DNA of 44,163 nt, from the UHGV virus genome UHGV-0207246; one strand, given 5' to 3'. Each line of letters begins with the position of its first letter. The first letter of the stretch is position 1. Under the pieces are notes generated by a model that saw nothing but the letters and a program-made list of their open reading frames with translations, had not been told where the DNA came from and searched no databases. This document shows positions 3,094-34,084 of the stretch, piece by piece. A program made the position numbers and the translations under genes. Origin of the DNA: a virus.

Positions 3094-3606
3094 ATGCCGC
3101 TAATCGTGGAAGATGGGTCAATAGTACCTGGCGCTGACAGTTACATTAGTCTGGCTGACGCCCGCGCGTTAGCGGCTAATTATGGTCTGGAGTTGCCGGC
3201 AGACGATACCGCCGCAGAGGTGGCCTTGCGAAACGGCGCTACTTATGTAGGGCTTGCAGAACCGCAGATGTGCGGGCGTCGCGTATCCGCTGAACAGTCT
3301 CTGGCGTACCCTCGCACCGGTGTTACGTTAAACGGGTTCCCTGTCGCGAACAACGCCATTCCGAAACAGGTAATTCTTGCGCAGGTAATCGCCACGGCTA
3401 CATACGGTGCGGGTACTGAGGTTCGGGCTAACTCAGACGGTCGTTCCGTGCAGACTGAGCGTGTAGAGGGTGCAGTGACAGTGACCTACTTCAACAATGG
3501 CGACAGTGGGGCCACAACCGCGATTACCGCGGCGGATGACGCTCTACGCCCGTTACTGTGTGGTGGTCTCAACAATGGCTTCTCGTTTAACGTGTACCGG
3601 GGTTAA
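3094..3606 (+). CDS. head-tail connector/adaptor protein candidate
   Basis: Position between capsid and tail genes; weak resemblance to gp6-like connector N-termini; function inferred mainly from synteny. Confidence 0.4.
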   Translation: MPLIVEDGSIVPGADSYISLADARALAANYGLELPADDTAAEVALRNGATYVGLAEPQMCGRRVSAEQSLAYPRTGVTLNGFPVANNAIPKQVILAQVIATATYGAGTEVRANSDGRSVQTERVEGAVTVTYFNNGDSGATTAITAADDALRPLLCGGLNNGFSFNVYRG

Positions 3607-3608
3607 AA

Positions 3609-4223
3609 ATGGCGAAGACTAAATCAGAGATGTTTACCCTTATCGGAGCGAACCTTCCCGATAACACCACCGGGCTTATCACCCCCGAGAAGTTACGCGA
3701 AGTAATGACACAGATGGCCGACTCACCTATTTACGCCACTCCGGGGGTTAAAGAGGTTGAAGTCCTTCGCGCTGCGTCTACCGTAATACAGGCGCCAACA
3801 GCGACGGACACGGCGTTGCAGTTAACTTTCGGCTCCGCTCAGGGAAGTACATCCGACCCGGTAATGATTAATGCTGCGGGGCTGGTTACGTTCAACGCCG
3901 CGGGTAACTACGCCGTTCGCATCAAGTTACAGGCTGGTCGTACTGGTGCGAGCGGGACGTCTATTCTGCTATCACGCATTTTAATAAACGGCACTCAATA
4001 CGGATCTCCGGCAGCTACGAAACTGGTCAGCGCGGATGTGACCATTCCTATTGAATCCCGCGTCGTTATTAACCCTACCGCAGGTCAGACGTTTGCTGTT
4101 CAGATTATGCGAGATAGCGCCGGAACTAACTTCGGCGGCGTATACCCACAAGCAGCTACTGTAACCGCATGGGGCACCGCGCCATCCGCGCTACTGGTTA
4201 TCTCGAGACTGGAGGCCGCGTAA
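3609..4223 (+). CDS. hypothetical structural protein
   Basis: ORF track; synteny within head-tail joining module. Confidence 0.4.
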   Translation: MAKTKSEMFTLIGANLPDNTTGLITPEKLREVMTQMADSPIYATPGVKEVEVLRAASTVIQAPTATDTALQLTFGSAQGSTSDPVMINAAGLVTFNAAGNYAVRIKLQAGRTGASGTSILLSRILINGTQYGSPAATKLVSADVTIPIESRVVINPTAGQTFAVQIMRDSAGTNFGGVYPQAATVTAWGTAPSALLVISRLEAA

Positions 4224-4321
4224 TGAATAAGTTCTTATGGGGCGCAGTTTTTGGTTTTCTTACCGCGGTAGTCTTGCACAGTTACGGTGTTCTTTTGACG
4301 CTGCAAGAGGTGTTAAAATGA
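4223..4321 (+). CDS. hypothetical small hydrophobic peptide (32 aa)
   Basis: TAATG overlap with upstream stop and ATGA overlap with downstream start; RBS GGAGG 8 nt upstream; MNKFLWGAVFGFLTAVVLHSYGVLLTLQEVLK. Confidence 0.3.
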   Translation: MNKFLWGAVFGFLTAVVLHSYGVLLTLQEVLK

Positions 4322-4677
4322 GCACAGCTTTCAGTAAACGTATGCAAGGCGTTGGTACACGCCTGCTAACCAAATTCGGCAGCACAGTATCTCTAATTCG
4401 TTCCGGCTCGAAAGTGTGGGATGAAGTTCTCGGTGAGTACGTCTGGTCTGATGATGAAGTGCTGCCGTTGAATGCCGTCCCGGTTCCGGTAAACGTGGAA
4501 CGGGTAAACGGTACGACGATTCAGGCCGGTGACGTGATTGTTAAAGCCGATTGCAGTGTCGTTCCGAAGATGGAAGACAAGGTGCAATTTGACGGCGGGC
4601 AATGGTCTGTCGTAGCCATCGAGAAGAAGATGGTTAATGGTGATGTCGTAGCCTACTTTATTCAGGTGAGAAAATGA
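4318..4677 (+). CDS. head completion / head-tail joining protein candidate
   Basis: Start at internal ATG with RBS AGAGGTG; synteny. Confidence 0.4.
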   Translation: MSTAFSKRMQGVGTRLLTKFGSTVSLIRSGSKVWDEVLGEYVWSDDEVLPLNAVPVPVNVERVNGTTIQAGDVIVKADCSVVPKMEDKVQFDGGQWSVVAIEKKMVNGDVVAYFIQVRK

Positions 4678-5069
4678 GTTTCGCGCTTGATGTCTCTAAG
4701 TTCGTCGAAAAGGCGAAGAAGAATCCCGAGAAGGTGATGCGTCAGGTGTCTATCAAGTTGTTTTCCGCTATCATAAAGGCGAGTCCGGTAGATACAGGCC
4801 GATTCCGTATGAACTGGATGGCATCCGGCGGTACTCCTGCTCCCGGAGTTACAGATGCAACGGATAAATCAGGGAACATAGCTACTGGAAACGCTACAAG
4901 TTTCGTGCTGAAAGCCGCTGACTGGCACGAGTTTACGCTGACAAATAACCTGCCGTATGCACAACGGCTGGAGTATGGTTGGTCACAACAGGCGCCAGCC
5001 GGGGTTGTCAGGACTAATATATCGCGTTTCCAGCAACTCATTAATGAAGAAGCCAACAAGGTGAAATGA
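4674..5069 (+). CDS. tail completion / neck protein (HK97 gp10-like)
   Basis: Motif PVDTGRFRMNW resembles the conserved PVDTGRLR motif of HK97 gp10-family proteins; ATGA-coupled to neighbours. Confidence 0.5.
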   Translation: MSFALDVSKFVEKAKKNPEKVMRQVSIKLFSAIIKASPVDTGRFRMNWMASGGTPAPGVTDATDKSGNIATGNATSFVLKAADWHEFTLTNNLPYAQRLEYGWSQQAPAGVVRTNISRFQQLINEEANKVK

Positions 5070-5482
5070 TGGGCTACTTTGAGGACTTAACAAAAGCGTT
5101 CGATGTGCCGCTGGTAGCCTTCGGAACCGCCAACGGCATCAAGGTTGCACTTGAAAACATCGACGCGCCGACGTCAACCGATACCCCGTATCTGGCGAGT
5201 TACATGCTACTCGCGGATACCGAGCAGGCGGATTTGTTCTTCACGGAACAACGCTCTGGTATCTATCAGGTCGACATTAACTACGCATCGGTGAAAGGTA
5301 GCGCGCCAATCAATAAAATGGCAGACTTACTTAACACGGCGTTTAAAGCAGGTAAGTCATTTTCACGTAACGACATCTGCGCCGAGGTTCAATCGGTTAG
5401 CCTGGGGCCGCTGATTGTAGAAAACGGATGGGCCAAACGGCCATTGTCAATTAACTTTATTGCATTCACCAAGAGGCTGTGA
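5066..5482 (+). CDS. tail terminator protein candidate
   Basis: Synteny immediately upstream of major tail protein. Confidence 0.4.
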   Translation: MMGYFEDLTKAFDVPLVAFGTANGIKVALENIDAPTSTDTPYLASYMLLADTEQADLFFTEQRSGIYQVDINYASVKGSAPINKMADLLNTAFKAGKSFSRNDICAEVQSVSLGPLIVENGWAKRPLSINFIAFTKRL

Positions 5483-6651
5483 ATATGGCTACAACTCCTT
5501 TTAAGGGCGCGAATACCGCGCAATTCTATGTGGCGGAAGTGACCCCGGGCGTAACACCGGATAACCCGGTATGGTCGCCGTTGCGCAATACGGGCGGTGT
5601 TCCGGCCATTACCCGCGACACGCTGACCTCCAATGAACTTGACGGCAGCCGTGAAACTACATCCATCCGCACCGGCAACAAGCAGGTTAGCGGAGAATAC
5701 GCTATTGAGCTTAGCTCGAAAAGCCAGGACGACTGGTTAGCCGGGGCTTTAGGCTCTACGTGGCAATCCGGCGTTTCTCTGTCCGGGCTGTCTATTACCG
5801 TCGCACCGGCGGGAAAGACATTCACCCGTGCAGAAGGTAGCTTTATTTCTGACGGCGTTGAAGTGGGGGACTTAATCGCGTTCACCGATTTAACTGGCGA
5901 TAACGCCAAACCGTTTATCGTAACCGAGGTAAGTGCGACAGTTGTCACCGGTGCTGGTACCCAACATACTCTGACCACTGAGACCGCCACTACTGCGGCT
6001 AAAACTGGCGATAAGCTGGAAACCGGTAGCCAGTGTAAGACGTTCTCTATTCTCACCTGGTACAAAGGCCAGTGTGGTGGGGCCGACGCGTACACGCTGA
6101 CCAAAGGCGTGGAAGTTTCTGGCTTCACTATTGAGCAGGCCGTTAACGCGATGGTAACTGGCAGCTTCCCGTTCATCGGTCGCAGTCAGGAGATTCTCGC
6201 CACGCAGCCGACAGGTTCTGATTTCTCCTCTGTCACGTTTGGTGACGAGCCGTTCTCTTCGGTTGACGTTTCTGTGTTCGATGGCTCAACACCGTTGCGC
6301 TGCGACAGCCTGGCCATCACCAACGACAACAGCGCGTCCGCTCAGTTCGAACTCGGCAACACTAACGTGGCGTTTGTGGAGCGTAGCCGCGCGGCTAACA
6401 CCTTCTCTATCTCTGGTAAGCTGTACGACATGGCTATGATTCAGAAGTTTATCAACGAACAGCAGGTAGAGATTAACTCTATTCTGGCGGGGGTAAACGG
6501 GGCTATGTCTTTCAGTTTAAAACGTGCGGAACTGACAGCGGTTACACCTGAGATTGGCGGACCTGAGTCAATCACTCAGTCTATTGAAGGCCAGGCTACT
6601 GGCAACCAGTACCAGTCGTCTATTGTTATTCAGCGTATCACCTACGCATAA
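5479..6651 (+). CDS. major tail (tube) protein
   Basis: 390 aa ORF after neck genes and before chaperone/tape-measure genes; followed by strong terminator. Confidence 0.6.
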   Translation: MNMATTPFKGANTAQFYVAEVTPGVTPDNPVWSPLRNTGGVPAITRDTLTSNELDGSRETTSIRTGNKQVSGEYAIELSSKSQDDWLAGALGSTWQSGVSLSGLSITVAPAGKTFTRAEGSFISDGVEVGDLIAFTDLTGDNAKPFIVTEVSATVVTGAGTQHTLTTETATTAAKTGDKLETGSQCKTFSILTWYKGQCGGADAYTLTKGVEVSGFTIEQAVNAMVTGSFPFIGRSQEILATQPTGSDFSSVTFGDEPFSSVDVSVFDGSTPLRCDSLAITNDNSASAQFELGNTNVAFVERSRAANTFSISGKLYDMAMIQKFINEQQVEINSILAGVNGAMSFSLKRAELTAVTPEIGGPESITQSIEGQATGNQYQSSIVIQRITYA

Positions 6652-6655
6652 AACT

Positions 6656-6679
6656 AAGGCCCCGAAAGGGGCCTTTTCT
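6656..6679. terminator. bidirectional rho-independent terminator
   Basis: AAGGCCCC-GAAA-GGGGCCTT flanked by A-run and T-run between convergent genes. Confidence 0.75.
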
Positions 6680-6909
6680 TACTCATCAATATTGCTTCGG
6701 TATTCCCGTAACTTCTCCAGACTTTCAATTGCTTCCGCTAAGTCTGTTCCGGTATCCTTGTGACCGCGCAGGCCCATACACAACAGCTTCTTCAATGCGT
6801 GCTGTAGCGCCGGGTCACGGATATCGAAAGCACGGAGAACATCATAAACGTCTACTGTCATAGTGCTGCCGTGAATGTTTGTCATTGTTCGGTTGTATTT
6901 TGAAGTCAT
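6679..6909 (-). CDS. DUF3310-like small phage protein
   Basis: Pattern VYDVLRAF...LQHALKKLLCMGLRGHKDTG.DLAEAIESLEKL resembles the DUF3310 family consensus (from memory). Confidence 0.45.
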   Translation of the reverse strand: MTSKYNRTMTNIHGSTMTVDVYDVLRAFDIRDPALQHALKKLLCMGLRGHKDTGTDLAEAIESLEKLREYRSNIDE

Positions 6910-8036
6910 CCCAGCATCTCCGGTGAAATAGTTAAACGTGCGACCTCACCATATTCGGCGCTATAAGTAATTACATTAGCACTGCGGCCCGACATCCATC
7001 CGCCGCGGGAGGCGTAGGCGTCTTTAGCCGCTAAGGTGCGGTGTTGCTCAACAACCATGTTACGGCTTTCTACAATCTTCTGGTGGTGCAGATGGCCTAC
7101 GTGGGCGTAGCTGTAAACACTCTCGCCGAACGCTTTGCGGAACTTGGCAATCATAACCGGTTCGATAGCATCGAAGCGCGATTTATGCCCGTGGTGAAAG
7201 AACAACGTCGTTTTGCCGTGTTGCACCATCTTGTAAACGTCTGGTGACGTATCGACAATCACTCGGCTGTCGTTTGAGTATAAAACCGTGAACATTTCGG
7301 CGAGCCATACAGAGCCTACAGGGTCGTGGTTACCTTGAACTATTAAGAGTTTGACTGTGTGATGTTTAACAAGCGCCATATCGACAACACGACGCACCAT
7401 ACGAATCATGTAGCGAACTAGTTTCTGATAGCGAGTATCGGCGTCTAACACATGACGCGACTCAGGGGTAACGGCATCAAGACTATCGAAGTGCGCGAAG
7501 TCTCCTAGCAGATTAATAACTCCTGTTCCCGCGTCCGGTGCTTTCTGAAACGCCGCGTCGAACCATCGAGAGAACAGGTCTTCTGCAATCTTCATGTCCC
7601 AGTCGTCGCCGCTCTCGTCTGCCCATGCAAGCATACCGAGATGGAAATCAGACACAGTGTAAAGATTGAGAAGTTTATCGTCGCGTTTGGCGCGAGTCGC
7701 TTTAACAGGCGCAACAGGTGTAATCTCTGACTTCATGCCTTCAATTACGGCTTTCATCAACTCGACCTGACGTTCAGCATCGGTGTCAGTCTTAACCCAT
7801 TGCAACTTAGTGTTGCCGAACTCGTCCACCAGGGACGACGTGCCTTTAATCTTGTAGCCGTCCGGCACAAGGTGACTAACGTCGCGCCCGTGGCCTACAC
7901 CTTTCTTAGCCAGCTTCGCTTTACGGATACGAATAACGCGGTCTGAGATGCCGTATTTACGGGCGATATCAATAATCTTCATCCCGGCGTTCAATTCTTC
8001 CTGTAACTGTTCGTCGGTTATTTTCTTCTGGGCCAT
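6906..8036 (-). CDS. N-terminal HTH domain fused to calcineurin-like metallophosphoesterase
   Basis: MPP motifs in order: DFHLG, GDFAHFD, GNHD, GHLHH; N-terminal IIDIARKYGISDRVIRIRKAKL is HTH-like; RBS GAGGAAG. Confidence 0.65.
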   Translation of the reverse strand: MAQKKITDEQLQEELNAGMKIIDIARKYGISDRVIRIRKAKLAKKGVGHGRDVSHLVPDGYKIKGTSSLVDEFGNTKLQWVKTDTDAERQVELMKAVIEGMKSEITPVAPVKATRAKRDDKLLNLYTVSDFHLGMLAWADESGDDWDMKIAEDLFSRWFDAAFQKAPDAGTGVINLLGDFAHFDSLDAVTPESRHVLDADTRYQKLVRYMIRMVRRVVDMALVKHHTVKLLIVQGNHDPVGSVWLAEMFTVLYSNDSRVIVDTSPDVYKMVQHGKTTLFFHHGHKSRFDAIEPVMIAKFRKAFGESVYSYAHVGHLHHQKIVESRNMVVEQHRTLAAKDAYASRGGWMSGRSANVITYSAEYGEVARLTISPEMLG

Positions 8037-8101
8037 GCTTACTTCCTCGTGTTTAGGATTTGTCCTATTTAACCACAGTGCATTCCTTTAAATAAAGGCG
8101 A

Positions 8102-8428
8102 CTATTTACTTTCTGCGCCTATCGCCCACCCTGTCATTACCATTTGCAGACGGGTGGCTGTCAGTAGGCTATAGAAAGCATCTCCGTTTTTCTCTACCGA
8201 ACGTATCACTGTGTAGGTTACGGCCTGCGGGGGTAGGCCCGATTTACCAACCTCTACAGCGGCCTCACACTCGCGAACGGTAGAGTCCTTAAATGCCTTT
8301 ACAATAGTAGGGTCGGCTTTATCGAGAACACCAGAAGTCATAAGAACAGATTCACTAAATACCTGTTCGCACGGAGACCCAAAAGCGGCAAAAGACATAA
8401 ACCCCAGAGCTAATACTAATTTACGCAT
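8102..8428 (-). CDS. secreted/periplasmic protein (signal peptide), function unknown
   Basis: N-terminal MRKLVLALGFMSFAAFGS signal-peptide-like; first gene downstream of an early-type promoter. Confidence 0.5.
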   Translation of the reverse strand: MRKLVLALGFMSFAAFGSPCEQVFSESVLMTSGVLDKADPTIVKAFKDSTVRECEAAVEVGKSGLPPQAVTYTVIRSVEKNGDAFYSLLTATRLQMVMTGWAIGAESK

Positions 8429-8456: not shown

Positions 8457-8485
8457 ATAGTACCCTATTATATTGGGGTGTGCAA
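8457..8485 (-). promoter_or_regulatory. class I early-type promoter (TTGCAC-17-TACTAT) for the minus-strand island
   Basis: Reverse complement TTGCACACCCCAATATAATAGGGTACTATTCACC matches the 30384-30412 promoter at about 32 of 35 positions; contains AATAG-N4-CTATT inverted repeat. Confidence 0.6.
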
Positions 8486-8592
8486 GTAGTGTGTTAGAAT
8501 AAGTTTGCGCCTAGTGTCGCACACGAAAAGCGGGTGGTTCCCGTCTGGCGCAACACCATCAACCAGTAACCTCTTAACCAAAGGATTAAAGA

Positions 8593-9009
8593 ATGAAACT
8601 TTCTGATTTTTATTTTGCGGACCGCCACGCCGCCGGTACTAAAATGCCTATCCTTCTGCCCAGTGGTAAAGATTCCGGTGAATGGTTGCAGGTCATCGGC
8701 CCCGATTGTGACGCTGGTGTTCGTGCGGGCCGTGCCTACACAACGGCAATTCGACGCCTTACGGAAGAACTTGCGCCATTAGATAAAGAGTGCGAGGCGC
8801 TGAATAACTGGGCGCGCTATAATGATGAGAAGGGCTGGCGGGTGATGGACCTGAACAAGCAGCTTGCCGTGGAAATCGTCACCGGTTGGTCATTCGACGA
8901 ACCATTCAGCAAAGAGGCGCTTGCTAACCTGTTCGACCAGTACAGTGGGTTGGCAGAGGCCGTAGTTAAGCATCACACCGATAGCCGTGAGAAACTCTCG
9001 GAAAAGTAA
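8593..9009 (+). CDS. tail assembly chaperone (gpG-like)
   Basis: Position immediately upstream of tape measure; followed by overlapping ORF in -1 frame. Confidence 0.55.
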   Translation: MKLSDFYFADRHAAGTKMPILLPSGKDSGEWLQVIGPDCDAGVRAGRAYTTAIRRLTEELAPLDKECEALNNWARYNDEKGWRVMDLNKQLAVEIVTGWSFDEPFSKEALANLFDQYSGLAEAVVKHHTDSREKLSEK

Positions 9010-9098: not shown

Positions 9099-9371
9099 TT
9101 GATTGCAATGGGCGTGATTAAAGAACCGCAGATGAAAGAAGCGACGGGGCCGGAATGCCCCGTTTCTCTTATCGACGTGTTCGAGAAATACCGTGCCATT
9201 AAATTCCTACAGCGCGAAACAGATGATACTATCGTTATAATCCCGCGCGATGCGCTCAAATGGCAAGATTTGGTAGCGTTTCGTGATGTCGCCGGTTACG
9301 GCATAAGTTTGTTCGAAGCCGAGGTTATCATGGGCTTAGACGGAATATTTGAGGGCAGAGAAGATGGCTGA
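9099..9371 (+). CDS. tail assembly chaperone extension (gpT-like), probably expressed as a -1 frameshift fusion with 8593..9009
   Basis: -1 frame is open from 8991; shifty A_AAG at 9003-9006 just before the zero-frame stop; classic G/GT arrangement before tape measure. Confidence 0.45.
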   Translation: MIAMGVIKEPQMKEATGPECPVSLIDVFEKYRAIKFLQRETDDTIVIIPRDALKWQDLVAFRDVAGYGISLFEAEVIMGLDGIFEGREDG

Positions 9372-33370: not shown

Positions 33371-33647
33371 CATCCTGAAAAGAAGCGGCCTTGCGCCGCT
33401 GTCACCGAGAGCGAACACCAGGATATACAAGCGCCGAGGTAACGCGCTGTACCCTGAGATTCAGGCCAGACGCAAAGCTGTCCGCGCCTGTGGGTTCCAG
33501 AACGGGAAGGCCGTGAATCTGGGTGAGTTCAAGACAAAGGAACGCGCAGCAATCGCTAACCGGCTATTTAATTACTGGAAATCGCTGGGATACGAGGATA
33601 TTCCAACGAAACCGCAGAGACGACAATACATCTGGAGACATAAATGA
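33354..33647 (+). CDS. AP2-like DNA-binding domain protein candidate
   Basis: Motif NGKAVNLGEFKTKERAAIANRLFNYWKSLGY resembles AP2-type domains; RBS GGAGG. Confidence 0.35.
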   Translation: MSLATDILKRSGLAPLSPRANTRIYKRRGNALYPEIQARRKAVRACGFQNGKAVNLGEFKTKERAAIANRLFNYWKSLGYEDIPTKPQRRQYIWRHK

Positions 33648-34084
33648 CGACTATCGCGTTTGACGGAAAGACAATGGCATGTGACACGCGTGTTGTGTGC
33701 GGGAGTAACTGTTACAACACAGACACGAAGATATACGAGAACGATTTTGCTGTTATCGGGGTGGCTGGTGATGCGGGGGTAGGGGATATTCTCGTTGGTG
33801 ACCGAGGAATTTTAGTGCCAAAGCGCTATGACTTCGATTTCGAAGCTCTGGTGTTCGTGAAAGACACAGAAAAGGTGTACAAAGTCGCGTTTTATAAATC
33901 GTGGGATTGTGCACTTAGTTCAGTTATTCCGGTTGCCGATAGTTTTTCAGCCGTGGGGTCTGGTTCTCCTTATGCACTGGCAGCTATGGAATGTGGATAC
34001 TCGGCACACGGTGGTGTAGCCGTTGCGTCGAAGTTCGACACTAACACCGGCGGCAAGATTATTACCAAACAACTATTAGGATAA
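33644..34084 (+). CDS. HslV/proteasome beta-subunit-like Ntn hydrolase peptidase
   Basis: N-terminal MTTI (Thr nucleophile after Met removal), IGVAGDAGVGD and SAVGSGSPYALAAME paralleling E. coli HslV motifs. Confidence 0.5.
   Translation: MTTIAFDGKTMACDTRVVCGSNCYNTDTKIYENDFAVIGVAGDAGVGDILVGDRGILVPKRYDFDFEALVFVKDTEKVYKVAFYKSWDCALSSVIPVADSFSAVGSGSPYALAAMECGYSAHGGVAVASKFDTNTGGKIITKQLLG

What the first reader, a model, noticed from the sequence alone, without database searches (positions are those of the whole stretch)
6906..8036. HTH-fused calcineurin-like metallophosphoesterase in an early-promoter island
All MPP signature motifs are present in order (DFHLG, GDFAHFD, GNHD, GHLHH) behind an N-terminal HTH-like segment. 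GNHD rather than GNHE suggests a phosphodiesterase or nuclease (Mre11/SbcD-like or cyclic-nucleotide phosphodiesterase-like) rather than a PPP protein phosphatase. A nucleic-acid-targeted phosphoesterase expressed early from an island inside the tail genes is a plausible anti-defence or host-takeover factor, for example one that degrades signalling nucleotides or modifies DNA ends.
Basis: partly seen in the sequence, partly recalled or inferred. Interest (0 to 1): 0.55.

Follow-up and report, generated by a model that had tools for sequence, protein, structure and literature searches.

The report
Phage HTH-fused Mre11-like metallophosphoesterase gene
This is a real, well-conserved phage gene for a DNA-binding domain fused to a two-metal phosphoesterase that most resembles DNA nucleases; it belongs to a family already catalogued in about 2,000 sequenced phages (including classical phage T1), but nobody has tested what that family does.

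Summary
The window is a Kagunavirus-type siphophage; the protein is 98.7% identical to Bas71_0022 ("DNA repair exonuclease"). It matches PHROG 704 end to end (E 1.6e-161). The family occurs in 2,014 phage records, including T1 gp16, and has 4,557 50%-identity clusters. All metal-ligand residues are invariant in 78 diverse members.

It is not an Mre11/SbcD orthologue: it has no capping domain and no Rad50/SbcC partner. Neighbours of distant members are DNA-metabolism genes (EndoVII, Pnkp-type HAD phosphatase, P-loop kinase, ligase, Dam).

Best reading: a DNA-tethered Mn-dependent nuclease acting on DNA ends or host DNA. A signalling-nucleotide phosphodiesterase is less likely but not excluded.

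The three-gene antisense island with its own conserved sigma-70-type promoter is real; "early" timing is untested. This is an ordinary member of a catalogued, uncharacterised family.

The parts
6906..8036 (-). CDS of the HTH-MPP protein (376 aa plus TGA stop)
   Evidence: ORF list. PHROG 704 full-length match, E 1.6e-161. 98.7% identical to Bas71_0022.
7905..8015 (-). N-terminal tri-helical helix-turn-helix domain (residues 8-44; net charge of residues 1-55 is +6)
   Evidence: AF2 helices at 8-16, 21-28 and 32-44 with pLDDT 94-96. Family members hit Sigma70_r4_2, GerE, HTH_1 and HTH_8. The profile hits GerE 1fse at E 0.026. Charge.
7725..7856 (-). Family-specific beta-hairpin (residues 61-85, near-invariant G74 and W80) plus helix 87-104, linking the HTH to the catalytic core
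   Evidence: AF2 secondary structure. Conservation in A1. Retained in the HTH-less Campylobacter phage member, which matches phrog_704 from profile position 78.
6909..7682 (-). Metallophosphoesterase catalytic core (residues 119-376)
7635..7649 (-). MPP motif I, DFHLG (D130 and H132 invariant)
   Evidence: aligns with DWHLG of T. maritima Mre11
7485..7505 (-). MPP motif II, GDFAHFD (G178 and D179 invariant; H182 and D184 at 90% or more). Mre11-type GD(L/F)xH spacing.
   Evidence: aligns with GDLLH of T. maritima Mre11
7323..7334 (-). MPP motif III, GNHD (N236 and H237 invariant)
7185..7196 (-). MPP motif IV, HHGH (H282 invariant)
7083..7097 (-). MPP motif V, GHLHH (G314 and H317 invariant, H315 at 90% or more)
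8042..8048 (-). Shine-Dalgarno sequence GAGGAAG of the MPP gene
   Evidence: read from the sequence
6679..6909 (-). Downstream 76-aa ORF. Its ATG overlaps the MPP stop codon (ATGA), which suggests translational coupling. It matches the C-terminal part of PHROG 2452, of unknown function.
   Evidence: conserved next to the MPP in Jerseyvirus
8102..8428 (-). First gene of the island: 108-aa protein with an N-terminal signal-peptide-like segment (PHROG 14165, unknown function). This slot is variable; in Jerseyvirus EnJE6 it holds a superinfection-immunity gene.
8457..8485 (-). Candidate sigma-70 promoter of the island: TTGCAC, 17 nt, TACTAT
   Evidence: Both hexamers and the spacing are conserved in four Kagunavirus and Jerseyvirus genomes while the spacer diverges. 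The match to consensus is weak (7 of 12), and the consensus scan did not report it.
6656..6675 (.). Bidirectional intrinsic terminator (8-bp GC-rich stem) separating the end of the island from the end of the major tail gene

Best explanation
The gene encodes a stand-alone, DNA-tethered binuclear (probably Mn2+) metallophosphoesterase that acts as a DNA nuclease. The N-terminal HTH, and probably the conserved beta-hairpin, hold the enzyme on DNA. An Mre11/SbcD/DP1-like active site, built from D130/H132, D179, N236/H237, H282 and H315/H317, hydrolyses phosphodiester bonds. The gene is transcribed by host RNA polymerase from its own promoter, independently of the surrounding tail operon. Its likely job is processing DNA ends or structures during phage replication and recombination, and/or breaking down host DNA. 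The second role has been shown for the unrelated mycobacteriophage MPE Gp48.

Shown here: the gene, the domain architecture, the intact catalytic residues, the fold neighbourhood, the family breadth and the genomic contexts. Inferred: the substrate (DNA), the metal, the timing and the biological role.
For: - All five MPP motifs are invariant across 78 members at 33-50% identity, so catalysis is under selection.
- Motif II has the Mre11-type GD(L/F)xH form and aligns with T. maritima Mre11 GDLLH.
- A DNA-binding HTH is fused throughout the family and is duplicated in some members (P0136).
- Distant homologues sit among DNA-metabolism genes. Era103: EndoVII, MPP, Pnkp-type HAD phosphatase, P-loop kinase, ligase. 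Webervirus: helicase, Dam, MPP, HAD_PNKP (E 9e-18), kinase, with overlapping ORFs. Fletchervirus: RusA, ligase, MPP. T1: helicase, Dam, gp16.
- Precedent: a phage MPE (A10ZJ24 Gp48) is an early-expressed DNA nuclease that degrades host DNA in vivo and in vitro (PMC12287305).
Against: - No biochemical or genetic data exist for any member of this family (literature searches).
- The protein lacks the Mre11 capping domain and any Rad50/SbcC partner, so its substrate handling cannot be copied from Mre11.
- Genomic context is not conserved between phage groups, and in this window the neighbours are uninformative small ORFs.
- An HTH can also mean transcriptional regulation rather than substrate tethering.
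- Gp48 and Bxb1 gp47 are related only at superfamily level (hhalign probability 14.5%; different PHROG).
Confidence: 0.5

Rival explanations
1. Signalling-nucleotide phosphodiesterase used as counter-defence. The MPP core would hydrolyse cyclic mono-, di- or oligonucleotides or other second messengers of CBASS, Pycsar, Thoeris or type III CRISPR, blunting abortive infection.
Against: A small-molecule hydrolase has no obvious need for a conserved, sometimes duplicated, DNA-binding HTH. The best structural neighbours are nucleases, not Rv0805. Neighbours of distant homologues are DNA-metabolism genes. There is no PADLOC hit and no literature report of a phage MPP degrading immune signals. Kagunavirus phages show no unusual resistance in the BASEL defence panel, though that panel is mostly RM systems and Old (PMC11990801).
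Confidence: 0.1
2. Nucleic-acid end-healing enzyme (2',3'-cyclic phosphodiesterase or 3'-phosphatase). It would work with a Pnkp-type kinase/phosphatase and a ligase to repair DNA or RNA ends cut by host nucleases, like the MPP domain of bacterial Pnkp.
For: There is a recurrent MPP, HAD_PNKP phosphatase, P-loop kinase gene string in Era103 (followed by a ligase) and in Webervirus. The HAD genes of the two phages are 51% identical and the kinases 39% identical, across two unrelated phage families. In Fletchervirus a ligase lies directly upstream.
Against: In those modules a 3'-phosphatase (the HAD) is already present, so the MPP more plausibly contributes a different activity such as trimming. 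The window phage has no detectable HAD, kinase or ligase (tblastn E > 0.05), and in T1 they are encoded far from gp16. The protein is structurally closer to the nucleases than to lambda-phosphatase-like enzymes.
Confidence: 0.12
3. Primarily a DNA-binding regulator or accessory factor whose MPP fold is used structurally, as Bxb1 gp47 serves as a recombination directionality factor. It could be a transcription regulator or a replication or packaging accessory protein.
For: The N-terminal HTH resembles regulator-type domains such as LuxR/GerE, sigma region 4, Fis and LysR. From general knowledge, the Bxb1 MPE homologue gp47 has a non-enzymatic role in excision; in the record shown it is annotated only as a metallophosphoesterase.
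Against: Every metal-ligand residue is invariant across very divergent members, which argues for retained catalysis. The Campylobacter phage members lack the HTH altogether but keep the catalytic core.
Confidence: 0.08
4. Protein Ser/Thr/Tyr phosphatase like lambda PP, as some GenBank records label it ('phosphatase', 'serine/threonine protein phosphatase').
For: Generic MPP motifs are present. Several deposited records carry that label.
Confidence: 0.04

Closest known systems
PHROG 704 ('DNA repair exonuclease'), e.g. Bas71_0022, phage T1 gp16 (ST16), Era103 gp26
   Same: Full-length profile match at E 1.6e-161. 98.7% identity to Bas71_0022. Same length and architecture as T1 ST16 (377 aa).
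   Different: Nothing of note; this is an orthologue. The family's name is an annotation transfer. I found no experimental characterisation of it.
Mre11 / SbcD nucleases (e.g. T. maritima Mre11 3qg5/4o43, S. aureus SbcD 7dog)
   Different: There is no C-terminal capping domain and no Rad50-binding region. No Rad50/SbcC gene is present in the genome. It has an N-terminal HTH plus beta-hairpin instead. Identity is 13-18%.
Archaeal PolD small subunit DP1 (3'-5' proofreading exonuclease, 5ihe)
   Different: There is no DP2 partner. The phage polymerase here is a family A enzyme, and T1-like phages with this gene have no annotated polymerase. Identity is 12%.
Mycobacteriophage A10ZJ24 Gp48 / Bxb1 gp47 metallophosphoesterase (PHROG 221)
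   Same: A phage-encoded MPP. Gp48 is early-expressed and was shown to be a DNA nuclease that degrades host DNA and is needed to overcome host defences (PMC12287305). It is the best functional precedent.
   Different: It is a minimal 255-aa MPE with motif I at residue 10 and no HTH. It is related only at motif level (BLASTP 27% over 135 aa; hhalign probability 14.5%; different PHROG).
Pseudomonas putida MPE nuclease (6nvo)
   Different: It is a much smaller protein with no HTH, and it is structurally more distant than Mre11 or DP1.

Membership tests
Calcineurin-like metallophosphoesterase (MPP) superfamily | Five ordered motifs: DxH, GD, GNH(D/E), H, GxH | tested here: met
   DFHLG 130-134, GDFAHFD 178-184, GNHD 235-238, HHGH 281-284 and GHLHH 314-318. 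The ligand residues are invariant in 78 members.
Calcineurin-like metallophosphoesterase (MPP) superfamily | Beta-alpha-beta-alpha-beta sandwich fold | tested here: met
Calcineurin-like metallophosphoesterase (MPP) superfamily | Pfam Metallophos or Metallophos_2 gathering score | tested here: not met
   21.8 bits against a cut-off of 27, and 17.0 against 21.5. Only 19 and 14 of 78 members reach E of 0.01 or better. This is a divergent family, but motifs and fold leave superfamily membership in no doubt.
PHROG 704 phage 'DNA repair exonuclease' family | Full-length profile match | tested here: met
   E 1.6e-161; residues 3-375 align to profile positions 1-389 of 390.
Mre11/SbcD | MPP nuclease domain with a conserved His three residues after the motif II Asp (GDLFH type) | tested here: met
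   H182 is conserved at 90% or more. It aligns with GDLLH of T. maritima Mre11, though the overall alignment is weak (E 0.26).
Mre11/SbcD | C-terminal capping domain and Rad50-binding helices | tested here: not met
Mre11/SbcD | Partner Rad50/SbcC SMC-like ATPase encoded with it | tested here: not met
   None appears among the PHROG hits of the large window ORFs or in the full annotation of the 93%-identical genome Bas71. T1 has none either.
Mre11/SbcD | Mn2+-dependent exo/endonuclease activity on DNA | not testable with these tools
   Requires biochemistry.
PPP protein phosphatases (lambda PP type) | GDxVDRG and GNHE signatures; close fold match | tested here: not met
Class III cyclic-nucleotide phosphodiesterases (Rv0805/CpdA/Icc) | Hydrolysis of cyclic nucleotides; closest fold neighbour | tested here: inconclusive
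Cluster A mycobacteriophage MPE (Gp48 / Bxb1 gp47; PHROG 221) | Sequence-family membership | tested here: not met
   hhalign probability 14.5%. Bxb1 gp47 falls in phrog_221, not phrog_704.
PolD DP1 | OB-fold plus PDE domain, working with the DP2 catalytic subunit | tested here: not met
   No DP2-like gene is present; the phage polymerase is family A (phrog_17). The similarity is confined to the PDE core.

The most novel reading that the evidence does not exclude
PHROG 704 could be a large, unstudied class of Rad50-independent, HTH-guided Mre11-like nucleases. It occurs in about 4% of sequenced phages, including T1, Drexlerviridae, Dhillonvirus and Guernseyvirinae. Virulent phages might use it either to dismantle the host chromosome, which would give nucleotide supply and silence defence genes as shown for the unrelated mycobacteriophage Gp48. 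Alternatively it could form a phage DNA-end repair pathway together with split Pnkp (HAD plus kinase) and ligase, undoing damage from host defence nucleases.
Probability: 0.3. Interest if true: 0.55.

Novelty: new member of a known kind. Interest (0 to 1): 0.3.

Why it matters
The gene itself is an ordinary orthologue of a gene already annotated in hundreds of close relatives. What matters is the family. It is very widespread (2,014 of 50,697 phage records; 4,557 clusters at 50% identity in metagenomes) and highly conserved. It is present in model and BASEL-collection phages that are easy to manipulate, such as T1, Bas18 and Bas70-76. It carries a label, 'DNA repair exonuclease', that I could not trace to any experiment in the searched literature. 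Showing whether it is a host-DNA-degrading nuclease, an end-processing enzyme or something else would replace an annotation-transfer guess for thousands of genes. It could also explain part of how small virulent siphophages take over the cell.

Tried and rejected
- NCBIfam and PADLOC scans gave nothing useful.
- A single-sequence PDB search gave no meaningful hit.
- The search for related loci with the family alignment failed because no stretch was conserved enough.
- I recalled phage PTXU04 (CRISPRi-ART fitness screen) as a Kagunavirus. The paper shows an unrelated phage with a 2,198-aa polyvalent protein, so I dropped the lead.
- The genome-reduction study of phage seszw concerns a Skatevirus, so I did not pursue it.
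- The BASEL completion paper describes Kagunavirus Bas70-76 but says nothing about this gene.
- One GenBank record labels the overlapping 76-aa ORF as DUF3310, and I suspected a link to T7 gp1.7 nucleotide kinase. Pfam gives no DUF3310 hit even at E of 5 or less. tblastn with gp1.7 finds nothing at that locus. The two proteins share no PHROG family. Rejected at this sensitivity.
- The end-healing hypothesis came from Era103's 'polynucleotide kinase' neighbour. That protein is actually a HAD phosphatase (DLDGT), and the window phage lacks HAD, kinase and ligase, so I kept it only as a minor rival.
- A literature search for Jerseyvirus transcriptomics returned only irrelevant papers.
- The consensus promoter scan found no significant excess of promoter-like sites (6 found against 2.7 +/- 1.8 expected). 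The promoter call rests on cross-genome conservation instead.
- The composition check showed no atypical GC for the MPP gene (0.504, equal to the genome mean).

Full report

Yes. An ATG-to-TGA ORF runs from 8036 down to 6906 on the minus strand and encodes 376 aa. A GAGGAAG ribosome-binding site precedes it.
- DFHLG, residues 130-134
- GDFAHFD, residues 178-184
- GNHD, residues 235-238
- GHLHH, residues 314-318
- a motif IV histidine in HHGH, residues 281-284

The protein matches PHROG 704 ('DNA repair exonuclease') over its whole length at E 1.6e-161. Pfam's Metallophos models are reached only below their gathering scores. NCBIfam and PADLOC give nothing.

**2. What is the window, and how common is the gene?**

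The region is 93% identical in DNA to Escherichia phage Bas71 and other Kagunavirus phages, and 80-90% identical to hundreds of Salmonella Jerseyvirus phages. The window is therefore a near-complete Guernseyvirinae siphophage genome.

The protein is 98.7% identical to Bas71_0022. tblastn finds the family in 2,014 of 50,697 phage records. These include Guernseyvirinae, Dhillonvirus, Drexlerviridae including Webervirus, the podovirus Era103, and Vibrio, Campylobacter, Rhodobacter and Roseobacter phages. T1 itself carries a member: ST16, 377 aa, annotated 'DNA repair exonuclease' in the T1 record and cited as 'p16 protein of phage T1' in Era103's annotation.

An exhaustive HMMER scan of 1.84 billion cluster representatives gives 4,557 clusters at E of 0.001 or better and 1,120 at E of 1e-30 or better. 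Most of those listed are 370-420 aa and align over most of the query length. Deposited names are inconsistent: DNA repair exonuclease, phosphatase, calcineurin-like phosphoesterase, DNA polymerase II small subunit, Ser/Thr phosphatase, recombination endonuclease subunit. All are annotation transfers.

**3. Anatomy**

In an alignment of 78 members sharing 33-50% identity with the query, D130, H132, G178, D179, N236, H237, H282, G314 and H317 are invariant. H182, D184 and H315 are conserved at 90% or more. The two-metal active site is therefore under strong selection.

AlphaFold2 with this alignment gives a confident model (pLDDT 93.6, pTM 0.83) with three parts:
- A tri-helical HTH at residues 8-44.
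- A long beta-hairpin at 61-85, with near-invariant G74 and W80, followed by a helix at 87-104.
- The MPP sandwich at 119-376, which runs to the C-terminus.

The HTH is corroborated family-wide. Individual members hit HTH_1, Sigma70_r4_2 (best E 1.5e-9), HTH_8, GerE (best E 2.4e-8) and others at that position, and the profile hits GerE in the PDB. Some longer members carry two HTHs in tandem (P0136). The Campylobacter Fletchervirus members lack the HTH but keep the hairpin and the core.

**4. Fold neighbourhood**

At motif level the family's D(l/f)HLG and GDF(l/a)H align with DWHLG and GDLLH of T. maritima Mre11. The histidine three residues after the motif II aspartate is, to my knowledge, typical of Mre11.

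**5. Genomic context here**

The gene is the middle one of three genes on the minus strand, inserted between the major tail gene (ends 6651) and the tail assembly chaperone gene (starts 8593):
- A 108-aa protein with a signal-peptide-like N-terminus (8428..8102; PHROG 14165).
- The MPP gene.
- A 76-aa ORF (6909..6679) whose ATG overlaps the MPP stop codon as ATGA.

A strong bidirectional terminator lies at 6656-6675. The island keeps this position across Guernseyvirinae, even in Jerseyvirus EnJE6 where the MPP is only 55% identical. There the first slot is a superinfection-immunity gene, and an HNH endonuclease and an Ant-like protein are added.

Alignment of the upstream intergenic region from four genomes shows TTGCA(C/T), 17 nt, TA(C/T)TAT with a divergent spacer, at window 8485-8457 on the minus strand. 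This is a plausible host sigma-70 promoter. It is a weak match to consensus, and the simple scan did not pick it up. 'Early' expression is therefore plausible but untested. The MPP gene's GC content equals the genome mean.

**6. Context elsewhere**

The neighbours of distant homologues are consistently DNA or nucleotide-metabolism genes:
- Era103: exonuclease, EndoVII, MPP, a HAD phosphatase (mis-labelled polynucleotide kinase; it has a DLDGT motif), a P-loop kinase ('T1 p62-like'), and an ATP-dependent ligase.
- Webervirus: helicase, Dam, MPP, HAD_PNKP (Pfam E 9e-18), and a P-loop kinase, with overlapping ORFs.
- The two HAD genes are 51% identical and the two kinases 39% identical, so the module recurs in unrelated phage families.
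- Fletchervirus: RusA, ligase, MPP.
- T1: helicase, Dam, gp16, with the HAD and kinase pair encoded elsewhere.

The window phage has no detectable HAD, kinase or ligase. Its other DNA genes are a helicase, an EndoVII-like nuclease, a family A polymerase, a gp2.5-like SSB/annealing protein, a DUF2800 PD-(D/E)XK exonuclease and a helicase-primase.

**7. Literature**

I found no experimental work on this family. The nearest precedent is mycobacteriophage A10ZJ24 Gp48. It is an early-expressed MPE that degrades linear, plasmid and genomic DNA in vitro and host DNA in vivo, and it is required to replicate in M. tuberculosis (PMC12287305). Its catalytic residues (D10, D41, H175) show that it has no N-terminal extension. 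Its Bxb1 homologue gp47 matches the present family only at superfamily-motif level and belongs to a different PHROG. Gp48 is therefore a functional analogy, not a relative.

**8. Best explanation and rivals**

- **DNA-tethered Mn-dependent nuclease (about 0.5).** It is anchored on DNA by its HTH and acts on DNA ends or structures, or on host DNA. The evidence is the invariant active site, the nuclease-like fold neighbourhood, the Mre11-type motif II, the persistent DNA-binding fusion, the DNA-metabolism neighbours and the Gp48 precedent.
- **End-healing phosphoesterase working with Pnkp and ligase (about 0.12).**
- **Mainly regulatory or structural protein (about 0.08).** The invariant catalytic residues and the HTH-less members argue against it.
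- **Protein phosphatase (about 0.04).** The signatures are absent.
- The remainder is unassigned.

**9. Verdict**

The gene is not unusual. It is an orthologue of an already annotated, very widespread phage family that happens never to have been characterised. Novelty: a new member of a known kind. Interest is modest (0.3), and it comes from the size and experimental accessibility of the uncharacterised family rather than from anything peculiar to this locus.

Noticed in passing
window 8504-8568 (+ strand), in the intergenic region between the island and the tail assembly chaperone gene: Full-length, near-threshold match to the Rfam int-alpA RNA motif (RF02996): 34.1 bits against a gathering score of 35.8, E 1e-4. 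The Bas71 copy (L001:7905-7969) scores exactly 35.8. The block is almost invariant across Kagunavirus and Jerseyvirus (alignment A2). It lies about 25 nt upstream of the chaperone start codon, in a virulent phage rather than next to an integrase or alpA gene.
   Followed up: partly
window 33644-34084 (+): A 146-aa ORF beginning MTTIAFDGKTMACDT, with a weak Pfam Proteasome hit (E 0.0026). It may be an HslV/proteasome-beta-like N-terminal-threonine hydrolase, encoded just upstream of the lysis genes.
   Followed up: no
L003 (Era103) 4998-8200; L006 (Klebsiella Webervirus) 3504-5738; L014 (T1) 4948-6534: A split T4-Pnkp-like pair recurs in unrelated phages: a HAD_PNKP phosphatase plus a small P-loop kinase ('T1 p62-like'). 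The pair is often directly downstream of the PHROG 704 MPP, and in Era103 it is followed by a DNA ligase. The HAD gene is mis-annotated as 'polynucleotide kinase' in Era103 and T1, and the kinase as 'dNMP kinase' in Webervirus.
   Followed up: partly
window 6679-6909 (-): A 76-aa ORF, probably translationally coupled to the MPP gene (ATGA overlap), that is conserved with it in Jerseyvirus. It matches only the C-terminal third of several longer PHROG families (phrog_2452; phrog_17613 'ATPase'). The 'DUF3310' label in one GenBank record is not supported by Pfam, and the ORF shares no PHROG with T7 gp1.7.
   Followed up: partly
L012 (Salmonella phage EnJE6) 2259-5195, and relatives 590B, NTEC3 and AV104: The antisense island between the tail tube and chaperone genes is a hotspot for accessory and selfish genes. 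It holds a superinfection-immunity gene, an HNH homing endonuclease and an Ant-like anti-repressor in different Guernseyvirinae, while the MPP and the 76-aa ORF stay constant.
   Followed up: partly
window 9099-9371 (+) relative to 8593-9009 (+): The two tail assembly chaperone ORFs both match the single PHROG 15027 profile, at positions 1-138 and 170-259. This fits the usual programmed-frameshift G/GT arrangement upstream of the tape measure gene.
   Followed up: no
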